From a virus (lineage: Duplodnaviria > Heunggongvirae > Uroviricota > Caudoviricetes), in IMG/VR virus record IMGVR_UViG_2778261389_000002, positions 1-5,373 of that record: a stretch of 5,373 nucleotides of DNA, one strand, 5' to 3'. The notes under the pieces were generated by a model that saw nothing but the letters and a program-made list of their open reading frames with translations, was not told where the DNA came from and searched no databases. The translations under genes were made by a program, and so were the position numbers. This document shows, piece after piece, positions 1-5,373 of this stretch. Positions within the stretch are counted from its first letter, which is position 1. Every line of letters begins with the position of its first letter.

Positions 1-60
1 GTGGCGGCCTCAGTCCGGAACAATTTGAAAACAAGAACCTCGCTTAGGCCTGTGTCCATA

Positions 61-630
61 TTACGTGGGTAGGATCACATATGGTGAATATTCGTTGTCT
101 TGTTTAGTAACGGTGTCTGTCATTGTCCTGATGTAGTCTGCGCTTACCACGTTGTTGTATTCTGTTGCGAAGCAGCATAACAACGTCAGAACATGCTCTG
201 TCGTTATTTCGATCCAGTTGATGTTGAAAAACTCATCGCCTTTTTTATCGTGTTCGGAATCGAAGATGCTTTGGTGGAGGATGTATTTGCCGGATTCCTT
301 GCGCGGTAACTTGATCGCTTTCTGGCGTTCCAACTCCTTGTAAATCTGCATTGCTTCAATTAGTACCGGCCTGCCGTTCATGAAGGGATCGCGCAACCTT
401 ACACGCTGGCCAACTCGACCGGTAATAAAGCTGTTTTCCTCTTCCACCAGCACGATAAAACCCTTTTCCTCTTTTTCTCGCAATTCGCGCAGCAGCTGGA
501 GTTCCATATCGCGGCGGCGTTCAGGGTAGCTGGTCCGCTCAGCCATTATCAGCTCGTTGTTGATCCATGCAGCAGTCATTGACGCCGGTTTACCGACGCT
601 CATCGAAACAACGCATATTTTCTTATCCAT
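61..630 (-). CDS. hypothetical protein, 189 aa, gene downstream of ref
   Basis: Part of track ORF 61..777(-). I place the start at ATG 628-630 (MDKKICVV...), preceded by SD AGGGGG (rc of 635-640) at 4-nt spacing; stop TAA at 61-63. The longer upstream extension in the track would translate through a terminator hairpin and the RBS, so it is rejected. No family recognised from the sequence; by P1 gene order it occupies the slot after ref. Confidence 0.55.
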   Translation of the reverse strand: MDKKICVVSMSVGKPASMTAAWINNELIMAERTSYPERRRDMELQLLRELREKEEKGFIVLVEEENSFITGRVGQRVRLRDPFMNGRPVLIEAMQIYKELERQKAIKLPRKESGKYILHQSIFDSEHDKKGDEFFNINWIEITTEHVLTLLCCFATEYNNVVSADYIRTMTDTVTKQDNEYSPYVILPT

Positions 631-642
631 AGCGCCCCCTAT

Positions 643-669
643 AAAAAAGAAAAGCCACCAGCGGCGGCT
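643..669 (-). terminator. intrinsic-terminator-like hairpin in front of the 189-aa ORF
   Basis: Minus strand reads AGCCGCC-GCT-GGTGGCT (7-bp stem with one G-U pair) followed by TTTTCTTTTTT. The T-tract ends about 12 nt upstream of the ATG at 630. Confidence 0.55.
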
Positions 670-819
670 TAGCAATACAACTGAAGGTAGCGCCCGGTAC
701 TCAGACTGTGCCGTCCATGGAATATTTGAAAAGGGATCCATCCGTACCGGGCATGTGATGATTCTGACTGAAGTCACTTGTCAGTTGTCAATTATTTCAG
801 ATTAAAAATAATATATTTA

Positions 820-1376
820 TTAGTGCATGATGTTTGCCATCTCATAGGCGTCAGCCAGCAATTCCATCTCTGACTTGTTCAGCAAGGTGAATTCTTTCTT
901 GCCTCCAACCACACCATCGGCATGAACGGGGACCAGCCAGGGGTATTTTTCTCTTACTTCAGCCGGTGCTGCATGCTAGTGGTGCCATCTACAAAGGGGC
1001 AATTGCTTTTTGTGACAACCCGGCGCGGTACGACCGGAGATATGGTGCAGAGACACCTCTTCAGATATTACTCCATGCATGTAGCAGGCAATGCAGGGGA
1101 GAGTGCCAAGAGCATTGGCGATGGTCCGTTCCTCCGCCGTCGGTGTTCGCCCCTTCAAGCCACGAGATTTTATTTTTACCGCACTTTTCCGCGTTTTGCT
1201 GGCTGGTGGGCGCTCTTTCTGTTTAGCGATACGGCGGTCGATAGAATCCCGCATTTTCTGATATTGCGATTCTCGCCAGGCGGGGTCAGCCAACTTTTCC
1301 CGTTGCCGATCGCTCGTTCTCTGGCTGCCTTCTGCCACTCGCGGCGCTGTTCAAGTTTTTGTTCGATTGTTTTCAT
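820..1376 (-). pseudogene. ref: ref (P1 recombination enhancement function, HNH endonuclease), disrupted by a frameshift and an in-frame TAG
   Basis: Best start ATG 1374-1376 (MKTIEQKLEQRREW...) lies in the frame of track ORF 1176..1481, which stops at 1176. The HNH core (CIAC...LHHI...CRWHH) is in a different frame (track ORF 976..1338) that overlaps it by 163 nt. That frame hits TAG at 976-978 and then stays open for 51 more codons (HAAPAEVREKYPWLVPVHADGVV...ANIMH) to TAA 820-822. ATG to TAA spans about 185 codons, matching the ~186-aa size I recall for P1 Ref. Position about 2 kb from loxP and the C1-operator promoter upstream fit ref. Confidence 0.6.
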
Positions 1377-1381
1377 ATGGC

Positions 1382-1407
1382 AAAAAAAAGGCGGCCTAAT
1401 GGCCGCC
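1382..1407 (-). terminator. intrinsic-terminator-like hairpin between the ref promoter and the ref ATG
   Basis: Minus strand reads GGCGGCC-ATTA-GGCCGCC (perfect 7-bp GC stem) followed by T8. The T-tract ends 5 nt before the ref ATG. It may terminate cre/cra read-through or act as a leader attenuator. Confidence 0.6.
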
Positions 1408-1465
1408 AATGATGTCAAGGAGTGAAGTAATGGCAACGTCTTCGTAGTTGACAAAAACTGCGGCT

Positions 1466-1491
1466 CAATTATAGCAATCAATTAGAGCAAT
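1466..1491 (-). promoter_or_regulatory. ref promoter (-10 TATAAT) overlapped by a C1 operator (Op2-like)
   Basis: Minus strand has a perfect TATAAT (rc of 1468-1473). Immediately upstream, ATTGCTCTAATTGATTG (rc of 1475-1491) matches the C1 operator consensus at 14/17 with the 11-bp core perfect. Ref is known to be C1-repressed in P1. Confidence 0.65.
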
Positions 1492-1517
1492 TAAAGTTAT
1501 TTATCGCGAATCACATT

Positions 1518-1546
1518 TTTTCATTTCAGTACCTGTGTGCTATACT
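1518..1546 (+). promoter_or_regulatory. candidate + strand promoter with extended -10
   Basis: TGcTATACT at 1538-1546 (TG plus TATACT) with a weak -35 TTTTCA at 1518-1523 and 17-nt spacer. It points at the terminator at 1593-1622. Confidence 0.35.
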
Positions 1547-1552
1547 CCTTCT

Positions 1553-1622
1553 TGATTGATTGGATGCGGAATACAAACCCGCTCTTTTGTGCAGCCTGGC
1601 TCCTTGCCAGGCTTTTTTTATT
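1553..1622 (+). ncRNA. candidate small RNA of about 70 nt (promoter to intrinsic terminator)
   Basis: Predicted start about 1553 after the extended -10. A strong + strand terminator follows: AGCCTGGC-TCCTT-GCCAGGCT (8-bp stem, 1593-1613) then TTTTTTTATTT. No plausible ORF or RBS inside. It lies between the cra-position ORF and the ref promoter. Confidence 0.3.
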
Positions 1623-1929
1623 TCAGCATGGAAGCTGTTAACGCTTTGGACCTTGCTGAACTGATTGAAAGGGCTTTGTCAACGTGCCCCAAAAATTCGC
1701 CAAACTCGGCCATCACTTTGGCAAAACCGCGCCGTGCTTCTTTCTCGGTGGCATTCATCACGAAATGTTCAGCACTACGCATACTTTTGACAGGGAACGC
1801 AACGGATATTGAGTCAATATCAGGCATTCTATCGCTCAGCTTTACAGTGACAATGACGGCTGGCGACTGAATATTAGTGCTTACAGACAGCACTACATAT
1901 TTTCCGTCGATGTTGAAATCCTTTCTCAC
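1618..1929 (-). CDS. hypothetical protein, 103 aa, in the position of P1 cra
   Basis: Track ORF 1618..1929(-) with GTG start and a weak GGTGA SD; the stop lies inside the T-tract of the 1593-1622 hairpin. It sits between cre and ref where P1 carries cra, but I cannot confirm the sequence identity from memory. The antisense + ORF 1556..1870 is less plausible because it would read through the terminator. Confidence 0.4.
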   Translation of the reverse strand: MRKDFNIDGKYVVLSVSTNIQSPAVIVTVKLSDRMPDIDSISVAFPVKSMRSAEHFVMNATEKEARRGFAKVMAEFGEFLGHVDKALSISSARSKALTASMLK

Positions 1930-1945
1930 ATGTCACCATAAATAT

Positions 1946-1962
1946 CAAAGAATTAGAGCAAT
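1946..1962 (-). promoter_or_regulatory. C1 operator-like site between cre and the cra-position ORF
   Basis: rc of 1946-1962 is ATTGCTCTAATTCTTTG: the 11-bp core ATTGCTCTAAT is perfect, 13/17 overall against the consensus. Confidence 0.45.
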
Positions 1963-1979
1963 AATTTACGCGTTAATGG

Positions 1980-3011
1980 CTAATCGCCATCTTCCAGCAG
2001 GCGCACCATTGCCCCTGTTTCACTATCCAGGTTACGGATATAGTTCATGACAATATTTACGTTGGTCCAGCCACCAGCTTGCATGATCTCCGGTAGTGAA
2101 ACTCCGGCGCGGGCCATATCTCGTGCGGCTCCGACACGGGCACTGTGTCCAGACCAGGCCAGGTACCTCTGGCCAGAGTCATCCTTAGCCCCGTAAATCA
2201 ATCGGTGAGTTGCTTCAAAAATCCCTTCCAGGGCGCGAGTTGATAGCTGGCTGGTGGCAGATGGCGCGGCAACACCATTTTTTCTGACACGGCAAAACAA
2301 GTAGTTATTCGGATCATCAGCCACACCAGAGACAGAAATCCATCGCTCAACCAGTTTAGTTACCCCCAGACTAAGTGCCTTCTCTACACCAGCGGTGCTA
2401 ACCAGCGTTTTCGTTCTGCCAATATGGATTAACATTCTCCCACCGTCAGTACGTGAGATATCTTTAACTCTGATCCTAGAAATTTCGGCTATACGTAACA
2501 GGGTGTTATAAGCAATCCCCAGAAATGCCAGATTACGTATATCCTGGCAGCGATCGCTATTTTCCATGAGTGAACGAACCTGGTCGAAATCAGTGCGTTC
2601 GAACGCCAGCGCCTGTTTTGCACGCTCACCGGCATCAACGTTTTCTTTTCGGATCCGTCGGATGACCAGTGAAACAGCATTGCTGTCACTTGGTCGTGGC
2701 AGCCCGGACCGACGATGAAGCATATTTAGCTGGCCCAAATGTTGCTGGATAGTTTTCACTGCCAGACCGCGCGCCTGAAGATATAGAAGATAATCGCGAA
2801 CATCTTCAGGTTCTGCGGGAAACCATTTCCGGTTATTCAACTTGCACCATGCCGCCCATGACCGGCAAACGGACAGAAGCATTTTCCAGGTATGCTCAGA
2901 AAACGCCTGGCGATCCCTGAACATATCCATCAGGTTCTTGCGAACCTCATCACTCGTTGCATCGACCGGCAATGCAGGCAAATTTTGGTGTACGGTCAGT
3001 AAATTGGACAT
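1980..3011 (-). CDS. cre: Cre site-specific tyrosine recombinase
   Basis: 343-aa ORF (MSNLLTVHQNLPALPVDATSDEVRKNLMDMFRDRQAFSEH...MVRLLEDGD) recognised as P1 Cre over its full length. Catalytic-region motifs are present (GHSARVGAARD, GGW, NYI). loxP lies 419 bp upstream. Confidence 0.97.
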   Translation of the reverse strand: MSNLLTVHQNLPALPVDATSDEVRKNLMDMFRDRQAFSEHTWKMLLSVCRSWAAWCKLNNRKWFPAEPEDVRDYLLYLQARGLAVKTIQQHLGQLNMLHRRSGLPRPSDSNAVSLVIRRIRKENVDAGERAKQALAFERTDFDQVRSLMENSDRCQDIRNLAFLGIAYNTLLRIAEISRIRVKDISRTDGGRMLIHIGRTKTLVSTAGVEKALSLGVTKLVERWISVSGVADDPNNYLFCRVRKNGVAAPSATSQLSTRALEGIFEATHRLIYGAKDDSGQRYLAWSGHSARVGAARDMARAGVSLPEIMQAGGWTNVNIVMNYIRNLDSETGAMVRLLEDGD

Positions 3012-3018
3012 TTGACAC

Positions 3019-3240
3019 TCAGATAATGGTTTTAAGTAAAGTGTACAGGATCGGCTCTGCCTTTACCTGTTTATGGTTCTCGTCATAGAAACGCCAACGA
3101 CCGCGACTGCGTTCTATCTTTTCTTCACCGCGCGATAATGACAGTTGACAACTATCACGATCAAACCCTTTCGCCCGCCAGTAACCACGATTTTTCTCAA
3201 GCTCAAGATGAGTGGACACTTTAGCAGCTGAATATCCCAT
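3019..3240 (-). CDS. small ORF (73 aa) directly upstream of cre
   Basis: ATG at 3238-3240 is preceded by SD GAGGTGA at about 4-nt spacing; the stop at 3019-3021 is 7 nt before the cre ATG. The product is basic with no recognisable domain. It could be a real leader ORF or a chance ORF in the cre regulatory region. Confidence 0.35.
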   Translation of the reverse strand: MGYSAAKVSTHLELEKNRGYWRAKGFDRDSCQLSLSRGEEKIERSRGRWRFYDENHKQVKAEPILYTLLKTII

Positions 3241-3337
3241 TTTTCACCTCTGATTGATTGGTGGTGCTAAGTGCGCTACGCGAAATCTGGAGCACTAACA
3301 CTGCCAACATTTCGCAGATTTTACGTAGCGCAACCTT

Positions 3338-3410
3338 GATCAAATGATCAAGTGATCACTATTTGACCTGATAAGGTATTGAGCTGTATGGATTTACAGG
3401 TAAATTGATC
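3338..3410. promoter_or_regulatory. Dam (GATC) site cluster in the cre regulatory region
   Basis: GATC at 3338, 3346, 3354 and 3407; the first three sit in reiterated TGATCA hexamers within 20 bp. P1 cre promoters are reported to be methylation-sensitive. Confidence 0.5.
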
Positions 3411-3429
3411 ATGTTCAATAACCCTTAAG

Positions 3430-3463
3430 ATAACTTCGTATAATGTATGCTATACGAAGTTAT
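3430..3463 (+). other. loxP: loxP site (Cre recombination target)
   Basis: Exact 34-bp ATAACTTCGTATA-ATGTATGC-TATACGAAGTTAT: two 13-bp inverted arms around an 8-bp asymmetric spacer. Confidence 0.97.
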
Positions 3464-3506
3464 TAGGTCTGAAGAGGAGTTTACGTCCAGCTGCGCATAA
3501 AAATCA

Positions 3507-3523
3507 AGAATTATTAGAGCAAT
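3507..3523 (-). promoter_or_regulatory. C1 operator (Op99 family), minus orientation
   Basis: rc of 3507-3523 is ATTGCTCTAATAATTCT, 15/17 against the consensus ATTGCTCTAATAAATTT. Confidence 0.7.
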
Positions 3524-3583
3524 AAATTTTGAGAGAAAAATCCCACTCCACCAGCCAAAAACTGGATTGTTTTTCATAGTTGT

Positions 3584-3610
3584 TTGACAATTGCTCTAAT
3601 AAATTATAGT
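3584..3610 (+). promoter_or_regulatory. immC promoter (P99-like) with overlapping C1 operator
   Basis: -35 TTGACA at 3584-3589 is followed by ATTGCTCTAATAAATTA (3590-3606, 16/17 to consensus) and -10 TATAGT at 3605-3610. It is oriented toward coi and c1, consistent with autoregulation. Confidence 0.75.
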
Positions 3611-3844
3611 TTTGCCGCCGTTACGTAATACGACTTTGGATTCACTATTTAATGTGTCTTCAGCGTTGTAGAGCGGCTCAGAAGGAAATGAGCAAACAGG
3701 GAAACCTTATACAACGGCATTACAGCTATGCATTGCTCATCTTACACACAGCGCAATGTTGTTAGATTACCCCAGCATGGATCATGGGTGAAACAGTAGG
3801 TCAGAGCTTCAGGCTCTGTGTTGTCAATACAGTGAGGCATAATT

Positions 3845-4054
3845 ATGGCTTTCATTCAACCAACCATCGGCGACGTTAGACATTGCTCTAACGCTTTATC
3901 TGTAGACCCTGCCGAAACCGACGCAGCCCGCGCCATTGCTGAACACTACTCAAAGATATCCAATCAGGAGTACCGCATCACCCAAGACGACCTGGATGAC
4001 CTCACTGACACAATCGAATATCTCATGGCAACTAACCAGTTAGACTCACAATAA
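3845..4054 (+). CDS. coi: Coi, C1 inactivator
   Basis: 69-aa ORF (MAFIQPTIGDVRHCSNALSV...) immediately upstream of c1 in the same orientation, with a GAGG SD 7 nt upstream. Size and position match P1 coi. A weak operator-like ATTGCTCTAA core sits inside the gene at 3882-3891. Confidence 0.85.
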   Translation: MAFIQPTIGDVRHCSNALSVDPAETDAARAIAEHYSKISNQEYRITQDDLDDLTDTIEYLMATNQLDSQ

Positions 4055-4097
4055 ATGCACTAATAAATCTATTATTTTCGTTTGATCCCTCTATAAT
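4054..4097 (+). promoter_or_regulatory. operator-like site at the coi stop plus candidate -10 for c1
   Basis: AATGCACTAATAAATCT (4054-4070) matches the C1 operator consensus at 14/17 with two core mismatches. TATAAT at 4092-4097 has no good -35. Confidence 0.35.
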
Positions 4098-4164
4098 ATA
4101 GGTCAGTAATGACCGGTTTTCTCAGCCGGGCGTTATTGACCATGTCAATTCTGGAGGAGGATCA

Positions 4165-5016
4165 ATGATAAATTATGTCTACGGCGAACAACTGTACCAG
4201 GAGTTCGTCAGCTTCAGGGATCTCTTTCTAAAAAAAGCTGTTGCACGCGCCCAACACGTTGATACAGCCAGCGACGGTCGTCCTGTACGCCCGGTTGTCG
4301 TTCTACCGTTCAAAGAAACTGACAGCATTCAGGCTGAAATTGATAAATGGACTTTAATGGCGCGGGAACTGGAACAGTACCCAGACCTCAATATCCCAAA
4401 GACTATTTTATATCCAGTGCCTAACATCCTTCGCGGTGTGCGTAAGGTTACAACTTATCAGACAGAAGCTGTGAACAGCGTCAACATGACCGCTGGCCGC
4501 ATTATTCATCTGATTGATAAGGACATTCGCATCCAAAAAAGCGCGGAGATCAATGAGCACAGTGCGAAATACATAGAGAACCTGGAAGCAACAAAAGAGC
4601 TAATGAAGCAGTACCCGGAGGATGAAAAATTCCGTATGCGCGTACACGGCTTTAGCGAAACAATGCTGCGCGTCCACTACATTTCCAGTAGCCCTAACTA
4701 CAATGATGGTAAATCAGTTAGTTACCATGTGCCACTGTGTGGCGTGTTTATCTGCGATGAAACTCTCCGTGATGGAATTATCATCAACGGTGAATTCGAA
4801 AAAGCAAAATTTAGCCTTTATGACTCCATAGAACCGATCATCTGCGACCGCTGGCCGCAAGCAAAAATATATCGCCTGGCAGATATTGAAAATGTAAAAA
4901 AACAAATTGCCATCACTCGCGAAGAGAAAAAGGTTAAGTCAGCCGCATCAGTTACGCGCAGCCGTAAAACCAAGAAGGGGCAGCCAGTAAACGACAACCC
5001 CGAAAGCGCGCAATAA
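4165..5016 (+). CDS. c1: C1 repressor of lytic functions
   Basis: 283-aa ORF (MINYVYGEQLYQEFVSFRDLFLKK...NDNPESAQ) recognised as P1 C1. Strong SD GGAGGAGG at 4153-4160 sits 4 nt before the ATG. It lies downstream of coi and the operator-controlled promoter. Confidence 0.95.
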   Translation: MINYVYGEQLYQEFVSFRDLFLKKAVARAQHVDTASDGRPVRPVVVLPFKETDSIQAEIDKWTLMARELEQYPDLNIPKTILYPVPNILRGVRKVTTYQTEAVNSVNMTAGRIIHLIDKDIRIQKSAEINEHSAKYIENLEATKELMKQYPEDEKFRMRVHGFSETMLRVHYISSSPNYNDGKSVSYHVPLCGVFICDETLRDGIIINGEFEKAKFSLYDSIEPIICDRWPQAKIYRLADIENVKKQIAITREEKKVKSAASVTRSRKTKKGQPVNDNPESAQ

Positions 5017-5020
5017 ATTA

Positions 5021-5053
5021 TGCCCGGCATCAACCGGGCATTCTTCCATTATT
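5021..5053. terminator. bidirectional intrinsic terminator between convergent c1 and the KilAC-like ORF
   Basis: TGCCCGG-CATCAA-CCGGGCA (7-bp stem) is followed by TTCTTCCATTATT on the + strand and by TAATTTATT on the - strand. Confidence 0.55.
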
Positions 5054-5312
5054 CAGCCGCCACCGGTTTTAACAAGCCAGCATCGAGCAGTTTACGCGTC
5101 AACCACTGCTGGCCTTTACCCGTTAATTGAGGCGTCAACCGTATCTGGTAGCCATCTTCATCATCCAGCACCACTTCTTTCACCGTGAAATACCCCGCGT
5201 TGATGTACTGCTGGAACGGTACATTTTTACGGCCTCCGGACGCTATCAGAATGCCGTTCTCCCGTAACCAGGCAAACAGCGCATTTTGTTTAAGTCGGGG
5301 TTTGAGGGCCAA
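5049..5312 (-). CDS. KilAC/ANT-like domain ORF (87 aa), probably a 5'-truncated remnant
   Basis: Track ORF 5049..5312(-). The motif pattern (NALFAWLRENGIL...NVPFQQYINAGYF...TPQLTGKGQQWLTRKLL) resembles the C-terminal KilAC/ANT domain of phage antirepressors, judged by eye. It has no ATG (only TTG at 5310-5312) and no SD, and all three minus frames are closed by stops in 5313-5373. Confidence 0.4.
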   Translation of the reverse strand: MALKPRLKQNALFAWLRENGILIASGGRKNVPFQQYINAGYFTVKEVVLDDEDGYQIRLTPQLTGKGQQWLTRKLLDAGLLKPVAAE

Positions 5313-5373
5313 TGGAACGAAAACGTACGCTAAGAAGTTAATTCATTGTTTAAATTGAAATTTAGTTCTCTCA

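What the first reader, a model, noticed from the sequence alone, without database searches (positions are those of the whole stretch)
5017..5373. Synteny break right of c1: KilAC-like ORF remnant where pacB should end
In P1 the gene convergent with c1 is pacB (terminase). Here the sequence after the c1 terminator encodes an 87-aa KilAC/ANT-like segment with no ATG or RBS, bounded upstream by AT-rich DNA with stops in all three frames. Either this element is a P1 relative with a different or rearranged neighbour, or it is the decayed C-terminal end of a larger gene.
Basis: partly seen in the sequence, partly recalled or inferred. Interest (0 to 1): 0.5.

Follow-up and report, generated by a model that had tools for sequence, protein, structure and literature searches.

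The report
Transposon-truncated antirepressor gene beside c1
The stretch after the P1-type c1 repressor gene is the leftover tail of an antirepressor gene that about half of P1-like plasmids in the collection searched carry there, cut off by the end of a Tn3-family transposon; public annotation and the literature already describe this, so it is ordinary.

Summary
An 87-aa ORF at 5049-5312 (-) hits Pfam ANT/KilAC (PF03374, E = 3e-21) and shows no similarity to PacB. It is a known arrangement, not an unexplained synteny break.

- **Origin of the ORF.** Positions 5049-5296 are 98.5-100% identical to the 3' end of a 371-aa ant gene. In phage RCS47 and many other P1-like phage-plasmids that gene sits between c1 and pacB. 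About 300 PLSDB plasmids carry this arrangement, against 314 with the P1-type direct pacB/c1 junction.
- **The upstream block.** Homology stops exactly at 5296|5297. There a 38-bp Tn3-family terminal inverted repeat begins (5297-5334). It is followed by the last 13 codons and the stop of the transposase gene (5330-5373, -).
- **Start of the ORF.** The first six codons, including the TTG start, come from the repeat and the junction. Only 81 ant codons remain, so this is a pseudogene.
- **Where else it occurs.** The identical junction is in 6 of 5,426 complete E. coli genomes. RefSeq annotates it there as [quoted passage not shown].
- **Prior description.** Venturini et al. 2019 describe ant between pacB and c1.

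Interest is low.

The parts
4165..5016 (+). c1 repressor gene (283 aa), the left neighbour of the finding
   Evidence: ORF. Annotated as repressor protein C1 in RCS47 and in RefSeq plasmids at the colinear position. 96% identical to P1 up to window 5015.
5020..5041 (.). Hairpin (9-bp stem, 4-nt loop) between the convergent c1 and ant genes; probably a shared, bidirectional terminator
   Evidence: Terminator-like site found. It is identical in RCS47 and phi456. Function is inferred.
5049..5296 (-). 3' remnant of the c1-adjacent antirepressor gene ant: stop codon 5049-5051, 81 intact codons at 5052-5294 (residues 291-371 of the 371-aa RCS47 protein), and 2 nt of codon 290. A pseudogene.
   Evidence: 100% identical to phi456 and 98.5% to RCS47 over 4900-5296. 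Colinear alignment breaks after 5296. Protein identity is 100% over residues 291-371. Pfam ANT hit. RefSeq annotates the identical sequence as 'incomplete; missing N-terminus'.
5295..5312 (-). First six codons (TTG-MALKPR) of the mechanical 87-aa ORF. They are read from the transposon inverted repeat and the junction and are not part of ant.
   Evidence: Window reads MALKPR-LKQNALF where RCS47 reads ...AKVVG-LKQNALF. The inverted repeat starts at 5297.
5297..5334 (.). 38-bp terminal inverted repeat of a Tn3-family transposon, GGGGTTTGAGGGCCAATGGAACGAAAACGTACGCTAAG, at the tnpA-proximal end
   Evidence: The sequence to the right of 5297 occurs in 1,252 plasmids of many genera under 'Tn3 family transposase', without the ant flank. 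In L010 two inverted copies, each with 1 mismatch, enclose tnpA, tnpR and an ars operon. An exact copy lies at the end of a full-length tnpA in L009.
5330..5373 (-). 3' end of the Tn3-family transposase gene tnpA: 13 codons (RELNFNLNNELTS) plus a TAG stop at 5330-5332 inside the repeat. The window ends inside the transposon.
   Evidence: Minus-strand frame 2 translation. The same reading frame continues as a 177-aa ORF in the CX04 plasmid. That ORF matches NCBIfam NF033527 Tn3 family transposase at positions 801-954 of 954, E = 2e-70. RefSeq annotates it as a partial Tn3 family transposase.

Best explanation
Window 5049-5296 (-) is the dead 3' end (81 codons) of an antirepressor gene. In RCS47-type P1-like phage-plasmids this gene lies between c1 and pacB and converges on c1 across a shared hairpin terminator. 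In intact relatives it is the last gene of a second immI-type operon: a C4-type antisense RNA, ash, an icd-like gene and ant. By homology with P1 Ant1/Ant2, its product would bind and inactivate the C1 repressor. In this element a Tn3-family transposon inserted into codon 290 of ant. The window ends 77 bp into that transposon. The window also starts in an IS3 end, so the sequence is probably an assembly contig broken at repeats on both sides (inferred). The remnant has no promoter, ribosome-binding site or start codon of its own and lacks the first third of the KilAC domain, so it is a non-functional pseudogene. In the closest complete relatives the transposon was later cut by IS26, and the rest of ant, icd, C4, pacB and the 3' end of pacA are gone. 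Those elements are therefore defective, plasmid-only P1 derivatives. Shown here: the homology, the breakpoint, the identity of the inverted repeat and tnpA, and the losses in relatives. Inferred: the order of events, the lack of function, and what lies beyond the window in its own source.
For: - **Domain identity:** Pfam ANT/KilAC hit, E = 3.1e-21.
- **Homology to ant:** 98.5-100% nucleotide identity to the c1-ant junction of phi456, RCS47, vB_EcoM-673R5 and JL22, ending at query position 397, which is window 5296. The alignment shows the clean break.
- **Gene order in relatives:** RCS47 has c1, ant (371 aa), then pacB and pacA. A RefSeq plasmid has c1, Ant, Icd-like, ash and terminase. Rfam C4 (75.4 bits) and isrK (60.2 bits) hits lie upstream of these genes in RCS47.
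- **Relation to P1 Ant1:** RCS47 Ant is 54% identical to P1 Ant1 overall and about 90% over the C-terminal 140 residues.
- **The inverted repeat:** sequence right of the break is shared with 1,252 plasmids annotated 'Tn3 family transposase'. An inverted pair bounds a tnpA-tnpR-ars transposon in L010. The tnpA C-terminus matches NF033527.
- **Same junction elsewhere:** found in 6 complete E. coli genomes and annotated there as partial pseudogenes.
- **Losses in the closest relative:** window 78-5373 is 99.96% identical to the CX04 plasmid. That plasmid has no PacB, only PacA residues 1-309, and no 5' ant, icd or C4 of this module.
- **Literature:** ant plus two short ORFs between pacB and c1 'as in RCS47' (PMC6906374).
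Against: Nothing contradicts this reading. Four limits apply. The window stops 77 bp into the transposon, so whether the transposon is complete in this particular source, or whether the 5' half of ant survives beyond it, cannot be seen. No 5-bp target duplication could be checked because the other transposon end is not available. Lack of expression is inferred, not measured. tnpA reads in the same direction as the remnant, so read-through transcription is possible.
Confidence: 0.95

Rival explanations
1. The 87-aa ORF is a functional small KilAC-domain protein. It would be translated from the TTG inside the transposon repeat on read-through transcripts from tnpA or an upstream IS, and would act on C1 or on the canonical Ant.
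For: The ORF is open for 87 codons and lies on the same strand as, and downstream of, tnpA. The retained C-terminal part is the most conserved region between this Ant and P1 Ant1.
Against: There is no ATG and no Shine-Dalgarno-like sequence before the TTG (sequence). The start codon lies in transposon DNA and exists only by accident of the junction. The Pfam domain lacks its first 34 profile positions. In the closest relatives tnpA is itself truncated by IS26 and has no promoter of its own. RefSeq treats the remnant as a pseudogene. The same ant is cut at a different point by IS1 in phi456, so no particular fragment is conserved.
Confidence: 0.03
2. The segment is the decayed or rearranged 3' end of pacB, as expected from P1 gene order.
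For: In P1 itself pacB ends 24 bp from c1.
Against: There is no protein similarity to PacB (E = 2.5). P1 nucleotide homology stops at the c1 stop codon. The segment is 98.5-100% identical to a different, annotated gene, ant.
Confidence: 0.005
3. The ant/transposon junction is an assembly chimera created by joining reads at a repeat, not a real DNA junction.
For: The window begins and ends in repeated mobile-element ends (IS3 at 1-77; Tn3-family repeat at 5297), as expected of a short-read contig.
Against: The identical junction is present in six independently assembled complete genomes from Canada and Japan. The break falls exactly at the first base of a transposon terminal repeat, as expected for a real insertion.
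Confidence: 0.01

Closest known systems
ant gene between c1 and pacB of Escherichia phage RCS47 (CDN90860.1) and pTZ20_1P-type P1-like phage-plasmids
   Same: Same locus, same orientation (convergent with c1) and same intergenic hairpin. Nucleotide identity is 98.5% over 4900-5296, and the 81 retained residues are 100% identical.
   Different: Only residues 291-371 of 371 remain. The ORF6N domain, the N-terminal region, the upstream icd-like and ash genes and the C4-type RNA are not in the window. They are also absent from the closest complete relative.
P1 Ant1/Ant2 antirepressor of the immI operon (c4-icd-ant)
   Same: KilAC C-terminal domain, 91% identical over 79 residues. The intact RCS47 homologue shares the N-terminal ~100 residues and the C-terminal ~140 residues with Ant1, and has the same C4 RNA / icd / ant operon layout.
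   Different: It is a paralogue at a different locus, next to c1 rather than next to sim/kilA. Its central region is replaced by an ORF6N domain. Its C4-type RNA region is strongly diverged from P1 c4. In this window it is a fragment.
Truncated ant ('Ant2', Orf87) beside c1 in Escherichia phage phi456
   Same: The same gene at the same place, also truncated by a mobile element. It is 100% identical to the window up to 5296.
   Different: It is cut by IS1 at L002 4512, about 216 bp further into the gene (about 120 codons remain), so this is an independent event.
Tn3-family transposon with 38-bp GGGG...TAAG terminal repeats (tnpA-tnpR, with an ars cargo in Enterobacter plasmid NZ_CP129513)
   Same: The terminal repeat matches the two ends in L010 with 1 mismatch each and matches L009 exactly. 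The tnpA stop codon lies inside the repeat.
   Different: Only 77 bp of the element are in the window. In the closest relatives it is reduced to about 0.67 kb by IS26. The named transposon type was not determined.

Membership tests
Pfam PF03374 ANT (phage antirepressor KilAC domain) | Match to the family profile above the curated gathering score | tested here: met
   76.2 bits against a cut-off of 25.3, E = 3.1e-21.
Pfam PF03374 ANT (phage antirepressor KilAC domain) | Complete domain (profile positions about 1-108) | tested here: not met
   Only profile positions 35-106 are present. The RCS47 protein covers positions 2-106.
P1-type antirepressor (Ant1/Ant2-like) gene | Sequence homology to P1 Ant1 | tested here: met
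   91% identity over 79 residues for the remnant. The full-length RCS47 orthologue is 54% identical overall, E = 1e-128.
P1-type antirepressor (Ant1/Ant2-like) gene | Intact reading frame with its own start, preceded by icd and controlled by a C4 antisense RNA | tested here: not met
   The frame is cut at codon 290 by the transposon repeat. The icd-like gene, ash and the C4 RNA are present in RCS47 and pLH10-b-1-B, but absent from the window and from the CX04 plasmid.
P1-type antirepressor (Ant1/Ant2-like) gene | Binds and inactivates the C1 repressor | not testable with these tools
   A biochemical property. It is known for P1 Ant1/Ant2 (annotation) and has not been tested for the c1-adjacent paralogue.
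PacB terminase subunit (the neighbour expected from P1) | Sequence similarity to P1 PacB, or colinearity with the 3' end of P1 pacB | tested here: not met
   BLASTP E = 2.5. P1 nucleotide homology ends at window 5015.
Tn3-family transposon end | About 38-bp terminal inverted repeat (GGGG...TAAG), present as an inverted pair around tnpA | tested here: met
   An inverted pair, 1 mismatch each, lies at L010 9010-9047 (+) and 17777-17814 (-) around tnpA-tnpR-ars. An exact copy lies at the end of tnpA in L009.
Tn3-family transposon end | Tn3-family transposase reading into the repeat | tested here: met
   The 177-aa continuation in the CX04 plasmid matches NF033527 at positions 801-954 of 954, E = 2e-70. 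As a fragment it falls below the full-length cut-off. The last 13 codons and the stop are in the window.
Tn3-family transposon end | 5-bp target-site duplication at both ends | not testable with these tools
   The other end of the element is not adjacent, either in the window or in the relatives, because IS26 truncated the element.

The most novel reading that the evidence does not exclude
The c1-adjacent ant, a second C4/icd/ant immunity module carried by about half of P1-like plasmids, may be knocked out repeatedly and independently by mobile elements. Examples are the Tn3-family end here and IS1 in phi456; other plasmids match only the first 448 or 723 bases of the probe, which may be further cases. 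This could reflect selection to lock the element into the plasmid (lysogenic) state as P1-like phages turn into cargo-carrying plasmids. Separately, the function and C4 specificity of this second module remain untested.
Probability: 0.2. Interest if true: 0.3.

Novelty: already known. Interest (0 to 1): 0.08.

Why it matters
It matters little beyond correct annotation. The segment is a transposon-truncated pseudogene in a common, already described variant of the P1 immC/pac region. It is useful in two small ways. The ant::Tn3-repeat junction is a lineage marker, seen in only 6 of 5,426 complete E. coli genomes. It also flags the element as probably a defective P1-derived plasmid: in the closest relatives the packaging genes are gone.

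Tried and rejected
- **pacB remnant:** rejected. There is no protein similarity, and P1 homology ends at the c1 stop codon.
- **NCBIfam scan of the remnant and of full-length RCS47 Ant:** no family hit.
- **Second copy of the inverted repeat in L009:** none within 5 kb; one was then found in L010.
- **Target-site duplication in L010:** the flanks TAATC and GACTT differ, so that copy gives no duplication evidence.
- **TAAGTC next to the repeat:** this motif recurs in some copies, which raised the question of whether it belongs to the transposon. L009 has a different flank and RCS47/phi456 ant contains TTAAGTC at that position, so it is target DNA. The breakpoint stays at 5296|5297.
- **Salmonella phage SJ1 record:** it appears to be a concatenation of genes with uniform strand and no spacers, so it was not used for synteny.
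- **IS3 end against fetched loci:** BLAST of window 1-77 found nothing; a plasmid search resolved it.

Full report
**What the window is.** The window holds the immC / lox-cre region of a P1-like phage-plasmid.
- cre lies at 1980-3011 (-) and cra at 3019-3240 (-).
- An exact loxP site lies at 3430-3463.
- coi lies at 3845-4054 (+) and c1 at 4165-5016 (+).
- C1-operator-like sites are present.
- The region is 96% identical to P1 from 3447 up to 5015, the end of c1, and not beyond (P1 annotation).

**Checking the observation.**
- The minus strand after c1 carries an 87-aa ORF at 5049-5312 that starts with TTG.
- Its translation hits Pfam PF03374 (ANT, KilAC domain) with E = 3.1e-21 and 76.2 bits against a cut-off of 25.3. 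The hit covers only profile positions 35-106 of 108.
- Upstream of the ORF in its own direction, all three frames contain stops, and GC drops to 25%.
- There is no similarity to P1 PacB (E = 2.5).
- A hairpin at 5020-5041 separates c1 from the ORF.

**What the segment is.**
- Megablast of 4900-5373 against phage genomes gives 100% identity to phi456 and 98.2-98.5% to RCS47, vB_EcoM-673R5 and JL22. Every one of these matches ends at query base 397, which is window 5296.
- In RCS47 the gene convergent with c1 is an annotated 371-aa "ant", followed by pacB and pacA. The protein carries ORF6N and KilAC domains.
- The three-way alignment is colinear through 5296 and then unrelated.
- The window protein reads MALKPR-LKQNALF... 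where RCS47 reads ...AKVVG-LKQNALF....
- Only residues 291-371 (81 codons, 5052-5294) plus two bases of codon 290 belong to ant. The TTG start and the next five codons are junction and transposon sequence.

**What cuts the gene.**
- From 5297 the sequence is GGGGTTTGAGGGCCAATGGAACGAAAACGTACGCTAAG.
- The 89 bases around it match 1,252 plasmids from Klebsiella, Escherichia, Enterobacter, Citrobacter and other genera. These matches lie under "Tn3 family transposase" and do not include the ant flank.
- In an Enterobacter plasmid, two inverted copies of the 38-mer (1 mismatch each) lie 8.8 kb apart around tnpA, tnpR and an ars operon.
- In another plasmid an exact copy lies at the end of a full-length tnpA.
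- The window's last 44 bases encode, on the minus strand, RELNFNLNNELTS followed by a stop.
- In the closest complete relative this frame continues as a 177-aa ORF. That ORF matches NCBIfam NF033527, Tn3 family transposase, at positions 801-954 of 954 with E = 2e-70.

The "AT-rich DNA with stops" is therefore the tnpA-proximal end of a Tn3-family transposon inserted in ant.

**Relatives with the same junction.**
- Window 78-5373 is 99.96% identical to a 94.7-kb IncY plasmid of E. coli CX04.
- The junction probe 5197-5373 is fully covered in only 6 of 5,426 complete E. coli genomes: five CX strains from Alberta and TOK-001 from Tokyo.
- RefSeq annotates the identical segment as [quoted passage not shown]. 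Next to it is a partial Tn3 family transposase, then IS26, then a terminase lacking its C-terminus, then lpa.
- tblastn against the whole CX04 plasmid finds no PacB and only PacA residues 1-309. It finds no 5' part of this ant and no icd-like gene; a nucleotide search finds no copy of the C4 region of this module. The canonical immI ant1 is itself truncated by IS1.
- That plasmid is a heavily IS-reshuffled P1 derivative without the phage morphogenesis genes.
- What lies beyond 5373 in the window's own source cannot be seen. The source differs from CX04 in having an IS3 end at 1-77.

**How common the ant-beside-c1 arrangement is.**
- A 1.9-kb probe spanning the c1 end, ant, the icd-like gene, ash and the pacB end from RCS47 is at least 80% covered in 300 PLSDB plasmids.
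- A 321-bp probe across the P1-type direct pacB/c1 junction is at least 80% covered in 314.
- The two arrangements are therefore about equally common alternatives.
- Venturini et al. [quoted passage not shown] RCS47)".

**What the intact module probably does (inference from homology).**
- RefSeq lists Ant, an Icd-like protein and an ash-family protein in one direction between c1 and the terminase genes.
- Rfam finds a C4 antisense RNA (75.4 bits) and an isrK-like RNA (60.2 bits) just upstream in RCS47.
- This matches the layout of P1 immI (c4-icd-ant1/2). In immI, C4 RNA blocks icd/ant translation, and Ant1/Ant2 antagonises C1 by forming a complex with it.
- RCS47 Ant is 54% identical to P1 Ant1 overall. 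The N-terminal ~100 and C-terminal ~140 residues are conserved, and the central part is replaced by ORF6N.
- Its C4-type region is strongly diverged from P1 c4, which suggests a different antisense specificity.
- None of this module except the last 81 codons of ant is present in the window.

**Mechanism and verdict.** A Tn3-family transposon inserted into codon 290 of the c1-adjacent ant gene of an RCS47-type P1-like element. The retained 3' fragment has no start codon, ribosome-binding site or promoter of its own, and its KilAC domain is incomplete, so it is a pseudogene. In phi456 the same gene is cut at another position by IS1 (break at L002 4512), so truncation of this gene has happened more than once. 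However, the feature is already annotated in RefSeq and described in the literature, and its cause is an ordinary transposon insertion. Interest is low.

Noticed in passing
window 1-77: The window begins with the terminal 77 bp of IS3, 100% identical to the IS3 copy on the F plasmid NC_002483. It abuts the mat-like gene at 78. No complete E. coli genome carries this IS3/mat junction (no place covers at least 80% of window 1-200). Since the Tn3-family end lies at the other edge, the window looks like an assembly contig bounded by repeats.
   Followed up: partly
window 820-1376 (-): The ref (recombination enhancement function) gene is a pseudogene. RefSeq annotates the colinear stretch of the CX04 and TOK-001 plasmids as 'Ref family protein; frameshifted; internal stop'. 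In the window it appears as two overlapping partial ORFs, 976-1338 and 1176-1481.
   Followed up: partly
L001 (RCS47) 5538-5625 (-) and 5670-5748 (-): The module between pacB and c1 in RCS47 holds Rfam hits to C4 antisense RNA (75.4 bits) and isrK (60.2 bits) upstream of ash, icd-like and ant. That makes it a complete second immI-type operon. Its C4 region is strongly diverged from P1 c4. The paper read (PMC6906374) mentions only 'two short hypothetical orfs and ant'.
   Followed up: partly
L002 (phi456) 4512/4513: In phage phi456 the same c1-adjacent ant is truncated by an IS1 end at a different position from the window's. The remnant is annotated there as 'Ant2'. Plasmids H63 and H65 match only the first 723 and 448 bases of the probe, which may indicate further truncation points.
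   Followed up: partly
L012 30788-31390 (CX04 plasmid): In the closest complete relative the canonical immI ant1 is also N-terminally truncated, here by IS1. That plasmid therefore has no intact antirepressor, no pacB and no morphogenesis genes, but it keeps c1, coi, cre/lox, phd-doc and repA/parAB.
   Followed up: partly
L013 40744-42336 (CX04 plasmid): An N-terminal Tn3-family transposase fragment (DUF4158) next to IS26, followed by a resolvase gene, lies about 20 kb from the C-terminal tnpA fragment that abuts ant. This may be the other half of the same transposon, separated by IS26-mediated rearrangement. It was not tested.
   Followed up: no
L003 (Salmonella phage SJ1, OQ595196): This 'complete genome' record has every CDS abutting the next on one strand with no spacers, and it matched the window in two pieces that skip 5184-5245. 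It looks like concatenated gene sequences rather than a real genome and should not be used for synteny.
   Followed up: no
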